From the human T2T-CHM13v2.0 reference genome, Homo sapiens: a DNA stretch of 64,000 bases. The stretch lies in assembly GCF_009914755.1 (NCBI RefSeq), contig NC_060934.1. One strand, given 5' to 3'. The translations under genes were made by a program, and so were the position numbers. The notes under the pieces are model-generated. The model made no database searches and was not told the DNA's origin. It saw only the letters and a program-made list of their open reading frames with translations. Shown here piece after piece: positions 5,254 to 25,781 of the stretch. The first letter of the stretch is position 1; each line of letters begins with the position of its first letter.

Positions 5254-6026
5254 TAAGATCTAATGATTTATTTGATTGAAAACACTTATTTAGCATACAT
5301 TCATGTATTTTTGTAACTTGTTGCCTCCTGACAGGTCACTAGACATAGGAAAGTGCCTCTTTTAACACTTTCATAAACCTTTAACATAAACATTTTAAAT
5401 TTCTTCATTATAGTGGAAATAGCGTCTCCCCTTATTATTGGACATTTTGAAAAATTAAAAAAATTTTAAAACAATTTTTATCATAAATACTAGATGGGAA
5501 TAATTATATATGAAGCTTGTCTGACAAGTTGGATTTTTATGATAGGATAGAATCCCAGGAGTAGAATTATTGGGCATACCCTTTTAAGCCTCACAGTAAA
5601 TTATTACTAAAGTGTGTTGCAAAGATTTTATCAGTTGTATAGACTCCCAGATATGAATTCCAGGGCCCTTCAGGGGAATTAGTGGGGACATTTTGCAAAG
5701 AGCAACAGATGGTGTCTGGAAACATGTTCTTTAATCTTTGCTGTGCCACATACTAGTTGTAGATATCTGGGTTAGTAACATAGGTTGTGTGGGCCTTACT
5801 TTCCTCACCATAACTCAGGTGAATTTTAACTATTCTACTGGCCTTAATTCTCATTCTGTAAAATATGAGTATAATCAAGGAGAATCAGTGCCTATATATT
5901 ACCAAGTGATTTGTCTGGGAAAAAAGCAGAAGCAGGGAATGTCAGATGTACCTAGAAAAAGGAGCAAGTTAGGGGAAATGCACAAAACATGATTTGCTCT
6001 TCTGGTTTTTTTAAGAATAGAGTCTA

Positions 6027-6349
<323 letters not shown>

Positions 6350-18180: not shown

Positions 18181-18639
18181 ACTTTAAGATAAATGACCCA
18201 CTTACTTTGGAAATGGTATTTGCCTATTTTAGTATGATGCTATAAGGTTTAAAGGGTCAGTATCCCTAAAATATGACAGCTGTTAAGATCTCTTTAATTA
18301 TTCAGAAATGAATGGTATGTGACAAGATATTATTGGTTAATTCAGTGGATCAGATGAATAAAATGTGCTGAAATATTTTGGAGACTGAAAATATAAATTT
18401 AGATGCAAGAAATATATTTTAAATAAACATGGAAAACAGTTTTTTTATCCGAGTCTAATCACGTTGAAATATTTTATGAATATCCCCAGAGAGTTCGTAA
18501 ATTAGTGAGTGATTTTTTTAAATGCAAAGGTAAATACCTAGAAATCATATATACACTTAAAGTAAAATCTCACAGAGTTCTCAAGGCCATTTTGCATTTA
18601 CTAGTGCCACAGTAGTGGCGTTACAGTGAGCTGCAGTAA

Positions 18640-19164
<525 letters not shown>

Positions 19165-20488
19165 TTTTTTTAAATTAAAAAGTAAACTTTAATGTCGAAA
19201 ATGCAAACCTGGGGAGGGCAGAAAGATCACACACAAGGCTGTCACTTCACACTTGGAAGGTTGCACAGCAGCCAGGCAGAGACCCTCCTCACTTCCCAGA
19301 TGGTGAGGGGGCCGGGTGGGGGCACTCCTCACTTCCCAGACGGTGCAGGGGCTGGGCAGAGGCACTCCTCCCTTACAAATGGTGAGGGGGCTGGGCAGAG
19401 GTGCTCCTCACTTTCCAGACAGGGCGGCGGCTGGGCAGGGGCGCTCCTCACTTCCCAGATGGGACGGTGGCCGGGCAGAGGCGCTCCTCATTTCCCAGAC
19501 GGTGAGGAGGCCAGGCAGAGGCACTCCTCACTTCACAGACAGGACGGCAGCAGGGCAGAGGCGCTCCTCATTTCCCAGACGGTGAGGAGGCCGGGCAGAG
19601 GCACTCCTCGCTTCGCAGACGGGACGGCGGCAAGGCAGGGGCACTCCTCATTTCCCAGACGGTGAGGAGGCCGGGCAGAGGCACTCCTCGCTTCGCAGAC
19701 GGGACGGCGGCAGGGCAGAGGCGCTCCTCATTTCCCAGACGGTGAGGAGGCTGGGCAGAGGCACTCCTCGCTTCGCAGACGGGGCGGCGGCGGGGCAGAG
19801 GCGCTCCTCATTTCCCACACGGTGAGGAGGCCGGGCAGGGGCACTCCTTACTTCGCAGACAGGACGGCGGCGGGGCAGAGGCGCTCCTTGTTTCCCAGAT
19901 GGGGCGGCGGCTGGGCAGAGGCGCTTCTCACTTCCCATACTGTGAGGCAGCTGGGCAGAGGTGCTCCTCACTTCCCAGATGGGGTGGAGGCCAGGCAGAG
20001 GCGGCGCTCCTCCTCAATTCCCAGATAGTGGGCGGCTGGGCAGAGGCGCGCCTCACTTCCCGGACGGGGCGGTGGCCGAGCAGAGGCGCTCCTCACTTCC
20101 CAGAGTGTAGGGGGGCCGGGCAGAGGCACTCCTCGCTTCCCAGAGTGTAGGGGGGCCGGGCAGAGGCACTCCTCGCTTCGCAGACGGGACGGTGGCTGGG
20201 CAGAGGCGCTCCTCACTTCCCAGACAGGGCGGCGGCCTGGCGGAGGCACTCCTCACTGCCCAGACGGGGCAGGGCCTGGGCAGAGGCGCTCCTCACTTCC
20301 CAGACTGTGAGGCTGCTGGGCAGAGGCTCTTGTCGCTTCCCAGACAGGGCGGGGGCCGGGCAGAGGCGCTCCTCACTGCCCAGATGGTGCGGTGGCCGGG
20401 CACAGGCGCTCCTCACTTCCCAGATGGTGGAGCAGCAGGGCAGAGGCGCTCCTCACTTCCCAGATGGTGCAGGCAGAGATGCTCCTCA
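19165..20488 (-). mobile_element. SVA2 element (GC-rich ~40-bp VNTR + unique 3' sequence + short polyA)
   Basis: About 30 units like gggcagaggcgctcctcacttcccagacgg. Unique end matches the SVA2-type sequence (minus strand: gctgtgcaaccttccaagtgtgaagtgacagccttgtgtgtgatctttctgccc...cattaaagtttactttt). T-run at 19165-19171. No CCCTCT hexamer and no SINE-R. Confidence 0.85.
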
Positions 20489-20571
20489 GGTCTCAATCTC
20501 TTGATCTCCTGATCCGCCCGCCTGGGCCTCCCAAAGTGCTGGATTACAGGCATGAGCCACCACGCCTGCCC
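20489..20571 (-). mobile_element. AluSc-like element, 5' part (continuation after the SVA2 insertion)
   Basis: ggtctcaatctcttgatctcctgatccgccc...ccaaagtgctggattacaggcatgagccaccacgcctgccc resumes where 18960-19164 broke off. Confidence 0.9.
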
Positions 20572-21794
20572 TGCCGTGTCTTCTTTCTCCTCCTAAGCAA
20601 CTGTCTTAGTCTCCTGAATTTTGATATTCTACTTAACACTCTCATGTTCTTACGCATGTTGCCATGCTGGAGGCGTCCTTCTCTTTGGGAAGCCTGACCC
20701 ACCAACAGTGCCTCAGGAGATAGACATGGAAGCTTTGCCGGTGGGGGCCGCTCGTCTCTATCACACCTCAGTTGCAGGGGAGGGGTCGGTTGCAGCTGCA
20801 GCGGTGGCCCCGACAGTTTTCTTTTGTGGGACCTGTGGCCGGCAGCTCTGGGTGGAGAAGACCTACTTGATCCAAGAGCTGCAGGATCCTTGGGCTGCAT
20901 GTCCTCCCCCACCATCAGCAAGCCTGGAGAGCTGGGCAGGTGGTCTTCACCCAGCACCTTCAAGGCCGCCTTCTCTGGCCACAGGGAGCAGCCCGGAACT
21001 GGGGCAGGGAGCACTGTTGGAAGTGGGTCAGGCTTCCCAAAGGGAAGGATGCCTCCAGCAGGGCTGTGTGAACTGGCGACTCCATGGCCCTTGGAGTAGA
21101 AACTCACTGCATGCACCTGGGCCTTGTCAGTCTGATTCTTTTCTGTCAAGCTCTTGAGGTGGACATTTCCCTCCAAGGGCCTGGGATTGTACCAGGAAGA
21201 AGTGAGGTTTCCCTGAGTCTCCAGGGGCCTAGAGGTGGAGGCTGCTTCCCCATTGCTACAGGGGCCCCTTTTATTGTCCTCCTGCCCCTGGGTCTCTACC
21301 TGGTCTTTCACCTCTGTTGCTTCTTTGGGCTCTTCTGCGCTCACCTCCGTCTTCGGGAGCCTGGCTGGGATCACCTGATCATCTAATGAAGGAAGTTGAA
21401 GGTTAAACTTGCCTCTGAGACAAGGGATCCTTACGGGGCTGAGGTGTCCAAACATTATGGAGTTGTGAGGAGACAGCACGGGTTTCTTCCTTGAGGGGGG
21501 GCTCCAGACCACAGGACGCAGGACCCTCTGTGGGGTGCCCGTGTTCCGAGGGATAAGACACAGCCTCATAGGGGCGCCGTCCCACCTGACTGGAAAAGAA
21601 GGCCCAAGATGTCGCTGACGGTTGAAGAGGAGTGGGAAACGGCCCACAATTCCCCGGGCAGGCACAGGTGCAGGAGCTGCAGGGTGAGCCCGGCCAGCTG
21701 GGAAGGCCTCACGGACAAGACGAGCAGGTTGCCGATGGCATGGCCAGGACCTGCGGCAGAACCAGGAACAAAATACGCTTAGCGAGTTGCCCAT
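20544..21794 (-). CDS. Intact intronless 416-aa NPAP1/POM121-related ORF (UPF0607 family)
   Basis: Begins MGNSLSVFCSW. Motifs shared with NPAP1 as I recall it: GRAH, FGHxSxVRIP, GEAxSTSR, PLEGNV, GKPDP, KRKxS, DRxExPPPAKLPCLS. First ATG at 21794 (the track start at 21812 is GTG); the stop TAA lies inside the Alu. Confidence 0.75.
   Translation of the reverse strand: MGNSLSVFCSWFCRRSWPCHRQPARLVREAFPAGRAHPAAPAPVPARGIVGRFPLLFNRQRHLGPSFPVRWDGAPMRLCLIPRNTGTPQRVLRPVVWSPPSRKKPVLSPHNSIMFGHLSPVRIPCLRGKFNLQLPSLDDQVIPARLPKTEVSAEEPKEATEVKDQVETQGQEDNKRGPCSNGEAASTSRPLETQGNLTSSWYNPRPLEGNVHLKSLTEKNQTDKAQVHAVSFYSKGHGVASSHSPAGGILPFGKPDPLPTVLPAPVPGCSLWPEKAALKVLGEDHLPSSPGLLMVGEDMQPKDPAALGSSRSSPPRAAGHRSHKRKLSGPPLQLQPTPPLQLRCDRDERPPPAKLPCLSPEALLVGQASQREGRLQHGNMRKNMRVLSRISKFRRLRQLLRRRKKTRQGRRGGSCL
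20661..21064. repeat. Inverted repeat inside the NPAP1-like ORF (arms 20661-20711 and 21011-21064)
   Basis: gccatgctggaggcgtccttctctttgggaagcctgaccca---ccaacagtgc vs reverse complement gccctgctggaggcatccttccctttgggaagcctgacccacttccaacagtgc: 3 mismatches plus a 3-nt gap. Confidence 0.92.
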
Positions 21795-21901
21795 TTTGAG
21801 TGAGTTGTGCACAGACGAAACTAAGGGTCAGAAGCGGAGAGGATACTCCTAAGTCACCCACTTCTCTGTGGCTGGGTGCACACTGGGCATCTGGGAGTTT
21901 A

Positions 21902-21909
21902 TGACATCA
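21902..21909 (-). promoter_or_regulatory. CRE-like element ~110 bp upstream of the NPAP1-like ATG
   Basis: TGACATCA (one mismatch to TGACGTCA) within a GC-rich upstream region. Confidence 0.35.
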
Positions 21910-22424
21910 CTATGGGGCTGGTGACAGAGCCAGTGTGTGGAGGAGTGCTTAGGAGCCCAGCGAGGGTGCCTACAAGAGGAGTCAAAGGGCAAAGGGTGAG
22001 ACCCTTCCACCGGTCCAGCTGGACTCTAGCCTCAGGGATATCCTGCTCCTGGGGGCAAGTGTGTGGCCCTGGATGGGCCCCCCTGTGGGGCTGTTGGGGG
22101 TGCGAGGCTGATCCGCCAGAGCCCTTCCACCTGGCGCCTGGCCCAGGTGCTGGCTAGCACCCAGTGGCCCTGTTTTGGCCGGCCCTGTCCCCCAGGTTAC
22201 AGGGCCAGAACCTGGAAGCAGAGCGCAGGACCAGCCAGATCGCGCCAGGCTTCCCCGGGGCCTCTCCAGTGCCTCTGTGCCACCTGGAGCCAGGCCCGCC
22301 TTCTCCATGGCTGCCGTGGCCTCAAGGGCCACCAGCCTTGCTCCGCAGGTTTCCAAAGAGAGGACGCAGTGCCCTGACCTGACTGGATGCACCTCTTACC
22401 ACATGCCTCCCTGGCAGGCAGGGT

Positions 22425-22530
22425 CTCCACTTTTTACAAATTTGCCTGAGACCATTCCTCAGGTCATTCAGGTGGTCATGGCCCAGCCAGGCTTTGAACC
22501 CAGGCTGTGCGATTCCACAGCTGGCGCTCT
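22425..22530 (+). mobile_element. MIR fragment carried inside the retrocopy
   Basis: caggtcattcaggtggtcatggcccagccaggctttgaacccaggctgtgcgattcc resembles the MIR core and 3' part. Confidence 0.55.
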
Positions 22531-23188
22531 GGCCTGTGTGCCTCATGATCATGGATACAGCATCTATTCTTATTTTTTCATGTAGTCCTGGGGTACTTAG
22601 CACCGTGGCATATCTGTAATAAGCACATGCACACCTCGAAGGAGGTCTTCACTTCAACATACGAGTTGACCATGGCATGCTCTGGGCTCCAGTCCTCTAC
22701 AAAGACGTAGGGCAGGAACTACCAGTTGTCAGCACAGCACCATCCCACATTGCTCTTCTAATGGAGCCTTTCACCCCAGATGTTCTTTCTCGTCTGATGG
22801 GAAGGATCCAAGTATGTAAAGATTATGTTATAGATCAGCTTTGGTCTGTCCTAAAAGAAATTTGCCAGTGGATTATTCCATATGGATAAAAGTCAGTTTC
22901 TCTGGTCTTCCTGGAATGTGTCTAGAAAGCAAATAGATTATTTACAAGTTCATAGTAGATCAATGTATTGGATTAAAATATGACAAACATAATTTGGTCA
23001 TTGTGAGCATGCCAGCTTGGTCAACTATTCACCACACATGATGCCCTAAATATAACTCTAGGTTTTCTTATGCCCAAGAGAGGGACATACTCTTGGGTGT
23101 CTGGACTAGGGAAACATGTATGAAAAACCATTTGGCCACTCTACATCTTGTTATTGGAGAATTGAAACCATCTATATTCAAAGATATT

Positions 23189-23218
23189 ATTAAAAGGCAA
23201 GAAGTTAAAAAATAAAAA
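23189..23218 (+). terminator. PolyA signal (ATTAAA) and A-tail of the retrocopied transcript
   Basis: ATTAAA at 23189-23194; the A-rich tail starts at 23207 and runs into the 3' TSD. Confidence 0.85.
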
Positions 23219-23235
23219 AATAAATTGCATGTCTG
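23219..23235 (+). repeat. 3' target-site duplication of the composite retrocopy
   Basis: aataaattgcatgtctg, identical to 18667-18683. Confidence 0.95.
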
Positions 23236-24056
23236 TTGTTATGGAATTTTATAACTGTACATACCTTTTATTTAATCCATTCACAGGTCATATTATAGGA
23301 TATCTTTCATTTAATAAGTATACTAAATCCATACCTTATACTGTTGAGTTTTGATAGTACCAGAGGGAAAAAAGAAGAAAAGCATGGCCTCTATCTTTAA
23401 GGAGCTATTTAACAGTCATATGAATCACTCGATTGAGAAGATCCATATGTGTAATATAATGAATTCCACAAAAATTGCTTATTAAAATTTTTTGAAAAAG
23501 TAGGGGTGAGATTGAATATAGCAAAGCTTTATTGTTGATTTTTGTTGTTGGCCAGGCCAAATTTGTGAACATTTTACATGATCAGCTATATCGAAATACA
23601 TTTGTATGCTCTACTGAATATAGGGAACATAATTTAATATTTAATTTAAACTCCAGGTTACCATCATTTACAGGCATTCTGTGCATTAAACCGTTTTGCC
23701 TCTTCTTTCTTCCTCAGTAACACGTTTAGGGCCTTTTGATGCATTGGAAAGAAAAGGCAGTTGCGAGCTGCTGGCTCTAGCAAATCAGAGCTAATCAACC
23801 TGAGAATAATGTTTGCACTTTCCCGCTTTCAAGTCTTTGCTCAAACTGCTCTCTACCTTTGCTCCCACAGGTTAGTCCTTTCCCCCAATCTAAAATCTCT
23901 CTGACTAGCCCTGAACTTACTTTTTATAGCTCTCACTGTCTACCATCTCCTTCATCTTGAATATACCAGGACAGACTGGGAAGTTCCAGAAAAAAACAGA
24001 CATAATACTTAAATCATCTTTGATACCTAATTTGTCCTCACTGCCAATTAATTAAT

Positions 24057-24199
24057 TTTGTTTTGTTTTATTTAATTTTGTAAAGACAGGGTCTTGCTGT
24101 GTCACGCAGGCTCCTCTCAAACTCCTGGACTCAAGTGATCCTCCCACCTCAGCCTCTCAAAGTGCTAGGATTAGAAGCCGTGAGCCACTGCGCCTGGCC
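24057..24199 (-). mobile_element. FLAM_C-like Alu monomer
   Basis: Antisense left monomer with a T-rich tail. Confidence 0.8.
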
Positions 24200-25781
24200 A
24201 TAATTTAAATAATCCTTTAGATTCCTGTCTCTGTCCATTTTCAAAGCCAGGGTTACACTATCATAACATACCCCATGATGTACACCATTGCTAAAACAAT
24301 CTTCCTGAAGTACTAATTAGATTTTTGAGCAGAGAATAAAACCATCCTTTCCAGTGTTGGCAAATATTCAACGTACTGTCCTGAAATACCTGTAGTACTT
24401 CCAAGTTTCTGCTTTGTGCTCACACTGTTTTCTTTGACCTGAAATGCAATTTCTATCTATAAAAATCTTAGTCATTATGAGGTCTAGCAAAGATCTTTTT
24501 CTTCTATGAAGCCTTCCTATCGACCCTAACTAAAATCTCTTCTCTGAGTTCCCAGCGTATACTGCTTGAGCTGGAGCAAGACTCCAGTGATCCTTGGAAG
24601 AAAGTGGGAGGTTATTTTCCCAGTGCGATTCCAGGAAAGTTTAATGTCTTATAGTTCAGTCCCCTTTAGCATTCCACATACAGTTAGTGCTCAAATATTT
24701 GATAATTGCTCTACTCACAAATATTTTTGTGTGAAATTGCTAGCTATTCTCTATCCAAGAAGTAATGAAGTATATAAGCTTCTTCAACTCTTTGTTGAGC
24801 CCGGGACCTCTTACTTATTTCTGTATCCTATCTACTCTTGAGTAGTAGGGTCATTGGAAAGCAACCACTGGGTTTGGGGATAAGTTGTGTGTATTTTAGA
24901 GGAGGAAGTAAAGGTGTTACTGGACTTTTAAAACTGAAGCTTTTTCTGTTTTAAAGTATTTTGCTTCCCGTTACTGTATTTATAAGATGATACTGGTATA
25001 CGTAGTGTCTTGGCTATTTATCTATTCCCCTTTCTCTTTAACACAATATTCCCCAACTTTGGTGTGATACTGAATTGAAATCTCTGGGAGTGTGGCCTAG
25101 GACTCTACACTTTTACTAACAATCAGTTGAGATGCTTATGAAGGTGGTGGTAGTAGTGATAATGGTAGTGATGATGATGATGATTGTATTAGCTCTGCTT
25201 TCGAAGGCTTATGATGTACTTACTGCACTTTTCTAGGCAGTTTGCAACTATTAACCTAATGTTCACAGCAAGCCTATGTGGTAATACGCTATTATCTTCA
25301 TTATACAAATGGAGAAACTGTGGCAGATATAAATTAAGTAACTTGTCGCCAAAATGACTTTCTTATAAATAGGTCAAGAATCCATGAAAAGGATGAGGCA
25401 TATTTTTTTGGTTGATAGTTTTTAAACTCACTTTCTAAAGGATTGCTTTAAGTGATGTGAATGATATGAATGTAAACTGGTTCTTATATAAATTGAAGTA
25501 TCAATATGCTGACTCTATATAGGAATACTTCAACAACTAGACCTAAATATAGATACTTGCTCTTGCTTTTAGGAAGCCTGTCACAATTCTTGGTGAAAAA
25601 GTAAGCATGCACCCAAAAACGTAGAACATTGAGGAAAATTTTTAAATAATTACACTTTCTAAAATACATGATTTTAGGAAGAGTGCTTTATTATATACTA
25701 TATATATATATATACACACACACATAGACATACACACGTAGATGCATATATATTTACTCTATATGGATGTGTGTCTATATG

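What the first reader, a model, noticed from the sequence alone, without database searches (positions are those of the whole stretch)
20544..22400. Stowaway gene: intact NPAP1/POM121-related ORF delivered antisense with its own upstream region and polyA site
Seen: 416 uninterrupted codons in a cassette otherwise made of decayed repeats. About 1.4 kb of native upstream DNA came along because it lay inside the retroposed + strand RNA. The stop codon comes from the Alu (GGSCL*) and a polyA signal from SVA2. Known: ordinary retrocopies lose their promoter; NPAP1 is a primate POM121-related retrogene. Inference: antisense carriage gets around promoter loss, so each copy may be expression-competent from birth and here would be antisense to the host gene.
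Basis: partly seen in the sequence, partly recalled or inferred. Interest (0 to 1): 0.82.

Follow-up and report, generated by a model that had tools for sequence, protein, structure and literature searches.

The report
Truncated NPAP1-like ORF riding antisense retrocopy
The 416-codon reading frame is real, but it is the front third of a known NPAP1-like (UPF0607) gene, copied passively and backwards inside a retrotransposed aberrant SPTLC1 transcript, and since then it has decayed about as fast as non-functional DNA.

Summary
Window 20544-21794 (-) is an open 416-codon frame with a Pfam POM121 match (E 1.3e-21). It lies antisense in a + strand retrocopy, 18684-23218, flanked by a 17-nt target-site duplication.

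The carrier RNA was SPTLC1 exons 1-3 spliced to an antisense-Alu acceptor in SPTLC1 intron 3. It ended at an ATTAAA 4.3 kb further on. The T2T genome holds 9 such retrocopies, all full length, plus the source locus and a segmental duplicate of it.

The ORF is not a whole gene. It is the N-terminal part of an NPAP1-like gene, cut short by an Alu that an SVA2 later split. It belongs to the published UPF0607 group (PMC3942032), and RefSeq calls it a pseudogene.

About 1.33 kb of native upstream DNA did travel with it. After insertion the copies look neutral:
- 5 of 11 frames are intact, against 3.0-3.8 expected.
- dN/dS on private changes is 1.31, not different from 1, and equal in intact and broken copies.
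- Changes are spread evenly over codon positions.
- There is no CpG island upstream.

Expression could not be tested. The carrier mechanism was not found in print. The functional claim is not supported.

The parts
18667..18683 (+). 5' target-site duplication, 17 nt (AATAAATTGCATGTCTG)
   Evidence: Identical 17-mer at 23219-23235. Other copies carry TSDs of their own.
18684..18959 (+). SPTLC1 exons 1-3, spliced (part of the 5'UTR, the ATG at 18700 and the first coding exons). RefSeq SPTLC1P1.
   Evidence: The 269-nt query maps as three pieces (1-70, 68-178, 176-269) to chr9:104.275-104.282M on the minus strand. Exon 3 ends ..TTTCAGG before gtaaat in the source locus.
18960..19164 (-). 3' half of an Alu (sense on the minus strand). 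Its antisense poly-T/AG served as the splice acceptor in the source locus. It includes the SVA2 TSD copy GGAGATCAAGA at 19154-19164.
   Evidence: The source reads T(20)GAG|ACGGAGTC and the retrocopies read ..TTTCAGG|ACGCAGTC. TSD.
19165..19290 (-). SVA2 3' end: polyA remnant (19165-71), ATTAAA (19188-93) and the 3' unique sequence
   Evidence: The 121-nt stretch is a dispersed repeat. The first look found 211 candidates, and all 40 that were scored are 92-100% identical. ATTAAA is the only canonical hexamer on the minus strand from 20600 down to 18600.
19291..20489 (-). SVA2-type VNTR (about 40-nt units), antisense to the mobilised RNA
   Evidence: Sequence. Many self-matches at 75-85% identity in all copies. 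The chr8 copy lacks it.
20499..20572 (-). 5' half of the same Alu (sense on the minus strand), with the second TSD copy GGAGATCAAGA at 20499-20509. It supplies the last roughly 9 codons and the stop codon of the ORF.
   Evidence: In loci L019/L020 the two Alu halves are contiguous, with no SVA2.
20544..21794 (-). 416-codon ORF of the UPF0607 / NPAP1-like group (POM121 family). RefSeq pseudogene LOC100505502.
   Evidence: Start context CAAAATGG.
21795..23130 (-). Native upstream DNA of the NPAP1-like gene (candidate 5'UTR/promoter). No CpG island.
   Evidence: Homology is contiguous in L032 and also seen in the NPAP1 locus L035 and in the NPAP1L pseudogenes. CpG o/e is 0.16-0.31.
23131..23206 (+). 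Unrelated repeat fragment that supplies the + strand polyA signal ATTAAA (23189-23194) and the cleavage site
   Evidence: Window 23123-23200 matches many dispersed loci at 77-82% identity. Hexamer. An older retrocopy, L033, uses the same cleavage site.
23207..23218 (+). Short polyA tail of the retrocopy
23219..23235 (+). 3' target-site duplication

Best explanation
Window 18684-23218 is one of nine full-length L1-mediated retrocopies of an aberrant SPTLC1 transcript.

**How the carrier arose.** SPTLC1 intron 3 (chr9:104.27M, T2T) holds, antisense to SPTLC1, a partial duplicate of an NPAP1-like gene. The duplicate consists of its upstream region plus about 1.6 kb of coding-equivalent DNA. An Alu had interrupted its reading frame, and an SVA2 later inserted into that Alu. 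SPTLC1 pre-mRNA spliced exon 3 onto the antisense-Alu acceptor and ran through the SVA2, the truncated ORF and its upstream DNA. It was cleaved after a chance ATTAAA. This 4.5-kb chimeric RNA was reverse-transcribed into new sites about 2% divergence ago. Using divergence values I recall, that is roughly 15-22 Myr, on the hominoid stem.

**What the ORF is.** The UPF0607 frame is passive antisense cargo. It arrived open, with its native upstream DNA. Since then it has drifted neutrally, and it is still open here only because the copy is young.

**Shown and inferred.**
- Shown: the anatomy, the splice junction, the TSDs, the copy number and the substitution pattern.
- Inferred: L1 as the enzyme, the age, and the lack of function.
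For: **Retrocopy anatomy.**
- There is a 17-nt TSD, a polyA tail and a + strand ATTAAA.
- The SPTLC1 exon 1-3 pieces map to three separate genomic places.
- The exon 3 donor and the Alu acceptor in the source match the junction seen in the retrocopies.

**Family size.**
- 11 copies are 95-96% identical.
- 9 of the 11 carry exons 1-3.
- 7 of those 9 show a clear TSD. One (chr2) is weak and one (chr6:23.7M) is unclear.
- A search with the 3' end found the same 11 and no 5'-truncated young copies.
- The phylogeny is star-like, with 383 private and 90 shared variants.

**Nested insertions.**
- The SVA2 is flanked by an 11-nt TSD inside the Alu.
- A stage before the SVA2 insertion survives at L019/L020.
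- The NPAP1-like body continues beyond the Alu in the source.

**Neutral decay.**
- The frame is intact in 5 of 11 copies. One has a stop at aa 407 and 5 are frameshifted, including the source.
- The neutral expectation is 3.0-3.8 intact of 11, with P(>=5) of 0.15-0.32.
- Private substitutions are N 142, S 44, stop 2. That gives omega 1.31 (p 0.12), with 1.30 in the intact copies and 1.32 in the broken ones.
- Private substitutions fall 70/62/56 over the three codon positions.
- Indels occur at 0.51 per kb per copy in the ORF and 0.68 upstream.
- Synonymous changes number 6.5 per copy, against 6.7 expected from the upstream rate.
- Upstream CpG transitions accumulate as fast (0.148 per site per copy) as in the ORF (0.129). 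There is no CpG island.
Against: - Counting all substitutions rather than private ones, omega is 1.4 (p 0.012). Nonsense changes number 2 against about 8.8 expected (by my arithmetic a Poisson tail near 0.01).
- Private changes alone give 2 nonsense changes against 5.7 expected (p 0.077).
- More frames are intact (5) than the point expectation of 3.0-3.8.
- The older paralog L031 (chr9:100.01M) keeps a 498-aa frame after about 6% divergence. Its internal gaps are in frame, and dN/dS is 1.17. This suggests the frame was preserved before the burst.
- The upstream region changes about 30% more slowly at non-CpG sites (1.08%) than the 5' block (1.39%) or the ORF (1.62%).
- Two low-stringency proteomic tables list UPF0607 proteins.
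- Expression was not testable here.
Confidence: 0.8

Rival explanations
1. One reading: antisense carriage delivered a promoter-equipped gene. On this view at least some copies, this one included, are transcribed from their own upstream DNA and polyadenylated at the SVA2 signal. They would encode a fast-evolving protein kept by selection, positive selection as reported for NPAP1.
For: - 1.33 kb of native upstream DNA is present in all 11 copies.
- The start codon has a good context, and a single ATTAAA lies downstream.
- Omega is above 1, and nonsense changes are fewer than expected.
- 5 of 11 frames are open.
- The older paralog L031 keeps its frame.
- NPAP1 is reported to be under positive selection (PMC3942032 abstract).
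- UPF0607 entries appear in two proteomic tables.
Against: - Omega is the same in frameshifted copies (1.32) as in intact ones (1.30), so the excess does not track coding capacity.
- Changes are even over the three codon positions.
- The indel rate in the ORF equals that of the flanks.
- The source copy itself is frameshifted.
- There is no CpG island, and upstream CpG decay is fast.
- The frame lacks about two thirds of an NPAP1-length protein.
- RefSeq calls it a pseudogene.
Confidence: 0.13
2. A conventional retrogene: the ORF copies are ordinary processed copies of a UPF0607 mRNA on the minus strand. This is what the label 'likely retrogenes' in the literature would suggest.
For: - The ORF has no introns.
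- An A-run follows the SVA2 ATTAAA on the minus strand.
- PMC3942032 infers retrogenes from the lack of introns.
Against: - The A-run at 19165-71 belongs to the SVA2 insertion. That insertion has its own 11-nt TSD inside the Alu.
- The TSDs and polyA tails of the dispersed copies are on the + strand. Each copy starts with spliced SPTLC1 exons.
Confidence: 0.02
3. The copies spread by segmental duplication of DNA, not through RNA.
For: Two pairs are DNA duplicates. L030 shares both flanks with the source L024. L031 shares its flank with the source beyond the polyA site.
Against: The nine dispersed copies end exactly at the cleavage site with A-tails. They begin in SPTLC1 exon 1 with the introns removed, and they have different flanks and TSDs.
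Confidence: 0.02

Closest known systems
UPF0607 group of NPAP1/POM121-related intronless genes (Neumann et al. 2014, PMC3942032)
   Same: - Pfam POM121 match.
- 43% identity to the N-terminus of NPAP1, with the same MGN start.
- Intronless, with paralogs clustered on chr9.
- The UniProt names 'Putative UPF0607 protein ENSP...' appear.
   Different: - In the parts I read (parts 1-2 of 4, the UPF0607 passages and Table S2), the paper treats the group as 'likely retrogenes' with two human members, a and b.
- It does not describe the Alu/SVA2 truncation, the SPTLC1-driven antisense carrier, or the 11 young copies.
- I could not map its accession numbers to this locus.
Exon-trapping / 5'-transducing SVA families (MAST2-SVA F1)
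   Same: - First exons of a host gene are spliced onto an acceptor in antisense Alu sequence of an intronic VNTR-bearing element.
- The chimera is then amplified by L1.
- PMC3287187 mentions SVA variants with 5' transductions. The MAST2 details are recalled, not read here.
   Different: - Here the VNTR element (SVA2) lies antisense in the mobilised RNA.
- There is no CCCTCT hexamer region and no SINE-R.
- The polyA signal comes from unrelated DNA.
- The cargo includes a gene fragment.
AMAC1 gene family spread by SVA 3' transduction
   Same: A retrotransposition event copied a cellular gene to several chromosomes (review passage in PMC9917352).
   Different: - As I recall it, AMAC1 travelled in sense orientation downstream of an SVA.
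- Here the gene fragment travels antisense, so its upstream DNA comes along.
PMCHL1/2, born by retroposition of an antisense PMCH mRNA
   Same: A retroposed antisense transcript carried gene sequence backwards to a new locus in primates (abstract of PMC2621205, seen in the listing).
   Different: - As recalled, PMCHL carries the 3' part of PMCH, not a start codon with upstream DNA.
- It arose from one retroposition plus a later duplication, not from nine.
SVA2 (VNTR plus a short 3' unique sequence)
   Same: The VNTR units and the 3' unique sequence end in ATTAAA and an A-run. The unique part is dispersed in the genome, with 211 candidates at the first look. The literature description is in the passages.
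   Different: Here the SVA2 is only a nested passenger and is not the mobilised unit.

Membership tests
POM121 family / UPF0607-NPAP1 group | Sequence match to the POM121 family profile | tested here: met
   PF15229, E 1.3e-21, 77.9 bits against a cut-off of 27, aa 154-358.
POM121 family / UPF0607-NPAP1 group | Closer to NPAP1 than a generic POM121 match, and intronless | tested here: met
   tblastn against the NPAP1 locus gives 43% identity over aa 1-364 in one frame, E 9.7e-53, starting at the same ATG.
POM121 family / UPF0607-NPAP1 group | Restricted to primates | not testable with these tools
   Only the human assembly was searchable. The statement is taken from PMC3942032.
L1-mediated processed retrocopy | Target-site duplication flanking the insert | tested here: met
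   A 17-nt TSD in the window. Among the 9 retrocopies, 7 are clear, 1 is weak and 1 is unclear.
L1-mediated processed retrocopy | 3' polyA tail after a polyA signal | tested here: met
   ATTAAA at 23189, tail at 23207-18. A-tails are present in all 9 retrocopies and absent in the source and its DNA duplicate.
L1-mediated processed retrocopy | Introns of the template removed | tested here: met
   Exons 1, 2 and 3 are contiguous here but 2.7-3.7 kb apart at chr9:104.28M. Canonical GT donor and AG acceptor.
SVA-type VNTR composite retrotransposon (SVA, LAVA, PVA, FVA) | CT-rich hexamer and Alu-like 5' region, followed by a VNTR in the sense of the mobilised RNA | tested here: not met
   The VNTR and SVA2 polyA signal point to the minus strand, while the mobilised RNA is +. 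No CCCTCT repeat lies at the 5' end. The definition comes from passages.
Functional retrogene | Open frame kept beyond the neutral expectation | tested here: inconclusive
   5 of 11 intact against 3.0-3.8 expected, P 0.15-0.32. Nonsense changes 2 against 5.7 expected, p 0.077.
Functional retrogene | Purifying selection (dN/dS below 1) | tested here: not met
   Omega is 1.31 on private changes and 1.4 on all changes, and is equal in broken and intact copies.
Functional retrogene | Locus-specific transcription and translation | not testable with these tools
   No expression data were available. There are only two low-stringency proteomic tables that name family members.

The most novel reading that the evidence does not exclude
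The SPTLC1-exon-trapped cassette acted as a true gene-dispersal vehicle. Because the UPF0607 unit rode antisense, its promoter and start codon came along. Nine ready-to-fire copies were seeded in hominoids. On this reading some of the five still-open copies, perhaps this one antisense in ZEB1, are expressed in testis or brain and evolve under positive selection like NPAP1. The omega of 1.3-1.4 and the shortage of nonsense changes would fit that.
Probability: 0.12. Interest if true: 0.7.

Novelty: new variant of a known kind. Interest (0 to 1): 0.38.

Why it matters
- It corrects how a named human gene/pseudogene family (UPF0607, 'POM121-like pseudogenes', SPTLC1P1-5) is understood. The SPTLC1 and POM121-like pseudogenes that sit side by side are two faces of one retro-element, not separate events. 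The family's expansion came from a single intronic source through exon trapping.
- It gives a clean natural example of a retroposed RNA carrying a start codon together with its upstream DNA, because the cargo is antisense. This route around promoter loss has a precedent in PMCHL, but I did not find it described for this family.
- For annotation, the five open frames held as 'putative proteins' are best read as young neutral relics until expression is shown.

Tried and rejected
- **PDB sequence search** with the ORF found 0 matches at E up to 1.
- **Literature searches for a prior description of the carrier.**
  - POM121+SVA+VNTR+retrotransposon gave 3 papers, none on this topic by title or abstract.
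  - SPTLC1+retrotransposon+VNTR gave 3 papers, on ALS and neuromuscular disease.
  - SPTLC1P1-5 gave 11 papers, which judging by their titles are association and expression studies.
  - UPF0607 gave 3 papers.
  - FLJ37424, LOC100505502 and ENSP identifiers gave 2 papers.
  - C15orf2 + 'transcription start site' gave nothing usable on the NPAP1 TSS.
  - Subscription journals and bioRxiv supplements are not covered. Supplement file 1 of PMC3942032 was not searchable.
- **Chance ORF:** rejected.
- **Minus-strand conventional retrogene and spread by segmental duplication:** both rejected.
- **Canonical SVA family member:** rejected (see the membership test).
- **Faster change in the ORF as a sign of selection:** I considered this, but the excess is confined to 21401-21794 (2.12% non-CpG). 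The rest of the ORF (1.3-1.4%) matches the flanks.
- **Bacterial promoter scanner:** not used, as it does not apply here.
Full report
**1. The observation**

The window has an ATG-to-stop frame of 416 codons at 20544..21794 on the minus strand; the stop-to-stop frame is 427 codons. It matches Pfam PF15229 (POM121 family) at E 1.3e-21 over aa 154-358. It aligns to the start of the NPAP1 frame on chr15 with 43% identity over aa 1-364, from the same MGN start. It is therefore real coding-derived sequence, not a chance frame. RefSeq annotates exactly these coordinates as the pseudogene LOC100505502 (table supplied with the finding).

**2. Anatomy on the + strand**

Reading 18400-24400 shows one insertion bounded by a 17-nt direct repeat, AATAAATTGCATGTCTG, at 18667-18683 and 23219-23235. 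A short A-tail lies at 23207-23218, and an ATTAAA at 23189.

The 5' end (18684-18959) is SPTLC1 sequence. A genome search with 18688-18956 returned three separate places at chr9:104.275-104.282M on the minus strand, matching query positions 1-70, 68-178 and 176-269. These are exons 1-3 with their introns removed. Downstream of them, and antisense to them, come these parts in order:
- the 3' half of an Alu (18960-19164);
- an SVA2 (A-run, ATTAAA, 3' unique part, about 1.2 kb of VNTR; 19165-20489);
- the 5' half of the same Alu;
- the ORF;
- about 1.33 kb of DNA that is contiguous with the ORF in paralogous loci;
- about 75 nt of an unrelated dispersed repeat that supplies the + strand polyA signal.

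The two Alu halves are each bordered by GGAGATCAAGA. So the SVA2 inserted into the Alu, in the same (minus) sense, with an 11-nt TSD. Loci L019/L020 on chr10 keep the earlier stage, with the ORF tail joined to an unsplit Alu. The 121-nt SVA2 unique part is a dispersed repeat: the first look found 211 candidates, and the 40 that were scored are 92-100% identical. This fits the published description of SVA2 as a VNTR plus a short unique 3' sequence (passages in PMC3287187 and PMC4432496).

**3. The family and its source**

A search of the T2T genome with 20598-22600 found 11 copies at 95-96% identity, plus older relatives.
- Nine copies carry the spliced SPTLC1 exons: chr10 (this window), chr2, chr9:28M, chr13, chr1, chr8:27M, chr6:64M, chr6:23.7M and chr16.
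- All nine end in A-tails at the same cleavage site. Their flanks differ.
- TSDs are clear in 7, weak in 1 (chr2) and unclear in 1 (chr6:23.7M).
- A search with the 3' end (22620-23200) found the same 11 copies and no extra 5'-truncated young copies. So 9 of 9 retrocopies are full length.

The tenth copy, L024, lies in SPTLC1 intron 3. It is about 2.3 kb downstream of exon 3, on the SPTLC1 strand, and has no A-tail. There exon 3 ends ..TTTCAGG|gtaaat, and the element begins T(20)GAG|ACGGAGTC. In the retrocopies the junction reads ..TTTCAGG|ACGCAGTC. This is canonical splicing of exon 3 onto the antisense-Alu acceptor. The eleventh copy, L030 (chr9:94.58M), shares both flanks and an exon 3 copy with L024 but has no exons 1-2. 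It is therefore a DNA duplicate of the source.

Variants among the 11 copies are mostly private, 383 against 90 shared. This fits a short burst from one master.

**4. What the ORF is**

In the source, NPAP1-like sequence continues for about 440 bp beyond the Alu/SVA2 insertion: L024 (oriented) 2963-3399 matches the NPAP1 locus at 5698-6137. NPAP1 itself reads 1155 aa. The 416-aa frame is therefore the N-terminal part of an NPAP1-like gene. The Alu cuts it short and supplies the last roughly 9 codons and the stop.

Neumann et al. 2014 (PMC3942032; I read parts 1-2 of 4, the UPF0607 passages and Table S2) describe a primate-only group, UPF0607. It is sister to NPAP1, intronless and 'likely retrogenes', with two human members, and NPAP1L pseudogenes lie on 9q21. 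The older relatives found here fit that picture:
- L034 and L036 at chr9:92M;
- L032 at chr9:99.98M;
- L031 at chr9:100.01M.

The parts of the paper I read do not mention the Alu/SVA2 truncation or the SPTLC1 carrier. UniProt-style names ('Putative UPF0607 protein ENSP...') appear in two proteomic tables. I could not link any accession to this locus.

**5. Is the cargo under selection?**

Frame status. The frame is open over all 416 codons in 5 of 11 copies (chr10, chr2, chr13, chr1, chr8). One copy has a stop at aa 407, and five are frameshifted, including the source and its duplicate.

Divergence. Per-copy divergence from the majority base (for the ORF and upstream, for the 5' block):

| Region | All sites | Non-CpG sites |
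|---|---|---|
| ORF | 2.41% | 1.62% |
| Native upstream DNA | 1.74% | 1.08% |
| SPTLC1/Alu/SVA2 5' block | 2.20% | 1.39% |

The ORF excess is confined to 21401-21794. Indels occur at 0.51 per kb per copy in the ORF and 0.68 upstream.

Substitution classes. Against a context-aware expectation, all substitutions give N 257, S 72, stop 2, with omega 1.4 (p 0.012). About 8.8 nonsense changes were expected. Using only private changes, which certainly arose after insertion, the figures are:
- N 142, S 44, stop 2;
- omega 1.31 (p 0.12);
- 5.7 nonsense changes expected (p 0.077);
- codon positions 70/62/56;
- omega 1.30 in the five intact copies and 1.32 in the six broken ones.

With neutral rates, 3.0-3.8 of 11 frames should still be open, and P(>=5) is 0.15-0.32. 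Synonymous change (6.5 per copy) equals the expectation from the upstream rate (6.7).

Upstream DNA. It has no CpG island (o/e 0.16-0.31). Its CpG sites decay as fast as those in the ORF (0.148 against 0.129 transitions per site per copy), as expected for DNA methylated in the germ line.

Taken together, the young copies behave as neutral DNA. The slight shortage of nonsense changes and the omega above 1 are noted as evidence for the rival. Omega does not differ between copies that can and cannot encode the protein.

**6. Older history**

L031 shares flanks with the source beyond the polyA site, so it is a DNA duplication. It keeps a 498-aa frame with an expanded N-terminal 21-aa repeat. Its internal gaps are in frame, and its C-terminal end is different and shorter. 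Against the young majority, pS is 0.056 and dN/dS is 1.17. The frame may thus have been preserved before the burst.

L033 (chr8:36.6M) is an older + strand retrocopy, truncated at its 5' end within the VNTR. It has its own TSD and uses the same cleavage site. So this + strand RNA was retroposed at least once earlier.

**7. Age**

A per-copy divergence of about 2% lies between the per-lineage divergences I recall for human-orangutan and human-macaque. That places the burst roughly on the hominoid stem. This is an inference; no other primate genome could be searched here.

**8. Comparison with known systems**

The mechanism works like exon-trapping SVA families (MAST2-SVA F1, recalled; 5' transductions are mentioned in PMC3287187). 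It also resembles gene dispersal by SVA transduction (AMAC1; review passage).

Antisense delivery of gene sequence by retroposition has a precedent in PMCHL1 (abstract of PMC2621205 in the listing).

The element is not a member of the SVA-type composites. Its VNTR is antisense to the mobilised RNA, and it has no CT-hexamer region.

I found no paper describing this carrier. That holds within a library that omits most subscription journals.

**9. Verdict**

The functional half is not supported by the substitution pattern and remains untested for expression. I rate novelty as a new variant of a known kind and interest as moderate.

Noticed in passing
window 20661-20711 and 21011-21064: A 51-54-nt inverted duplication lies inside the ORF, at 89-91% complementarity, and is present in all young copies. 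The C-terminal stretch of the frame, just before the Alu, is encoded by the reverse complement of an internal ORF segment. Homology to NPAP1 stops at about 20702-20711.
   Followed up: partly
L031 (chr9:100.01M) about 5650-5980; window 21718-21782: The roughly 63-nt segment that encodes the N-terminus is tandemly expanded in the older paralog. This gives about five 21-aa repeats and a 498-aa frame. The same N-terminal third is the fastest-changing part among the young copies, at 2.12% non-CpG.
   Followed up: partly
L026 (chr8:27.3M): This retrocopy lacks almost the whole VNTR: window 19264 joins about 20510 with some 37 bp between. It still keeps an open 416-codon frame.
   Followed up: no
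L019, L020 and chr10:80.73M: Three chr10 loci carry only the ORF tail (window 20489-21010, 78% identity) joined to an unsplit Alu. This is a stage before the SVA2 insertion. All three share the same 5' end, so they are probably DNA duplicates of one another.
   Followed up: partly
window 21795-23130: Across the 11 copies, the native upstream DNA changes about 30% more slowly at non-CpG sites (1.08%) than the 5' block (1.39%) or the ORF (1.62%). A lower A/T-site rate accounts for part of this. I could not tell weak constraint from a composition effect.
   Followed up: partly
window 21777-21794 (-); L035 4535: The ORF and NPAP1 both begin MGN..LS. From memory, this fits the N-myristoylation pattern (Gly2, Ser6). 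POM121's transmembrane exon is reported lost in this group (PMC3942032). A lipid anchor replacing it is only a guess.
   Followed up: no
L042 (chr1:38.88M) 1490-1625: This is a copy of the SVA2 3' unique sequence, preceded by a single VNTR-like unit and not followed by an evident A-tail. It might be a progenitor-like or heavily truncated SVA2.
   Followed up: no
all nine retrocopies: 9 of 9 young retrocopies reach SPTLC1 exon 1, and their 5' ends are scattered over about 30 nt. As I recall, most L1-mediated processed copies are 5' truncated, so this is unusual for a 4.5-kb template. Whether the antisense VNTR helps was not tested.
   Followed up: no
window 18658-18959 (RefSeq SPTLC1P1): The annotated start of the pseudogene (18658) lies within the flank and TSD. 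The SPTLC1-derived part begins at about 18684 and ends at 18959.
   Followed up: yes
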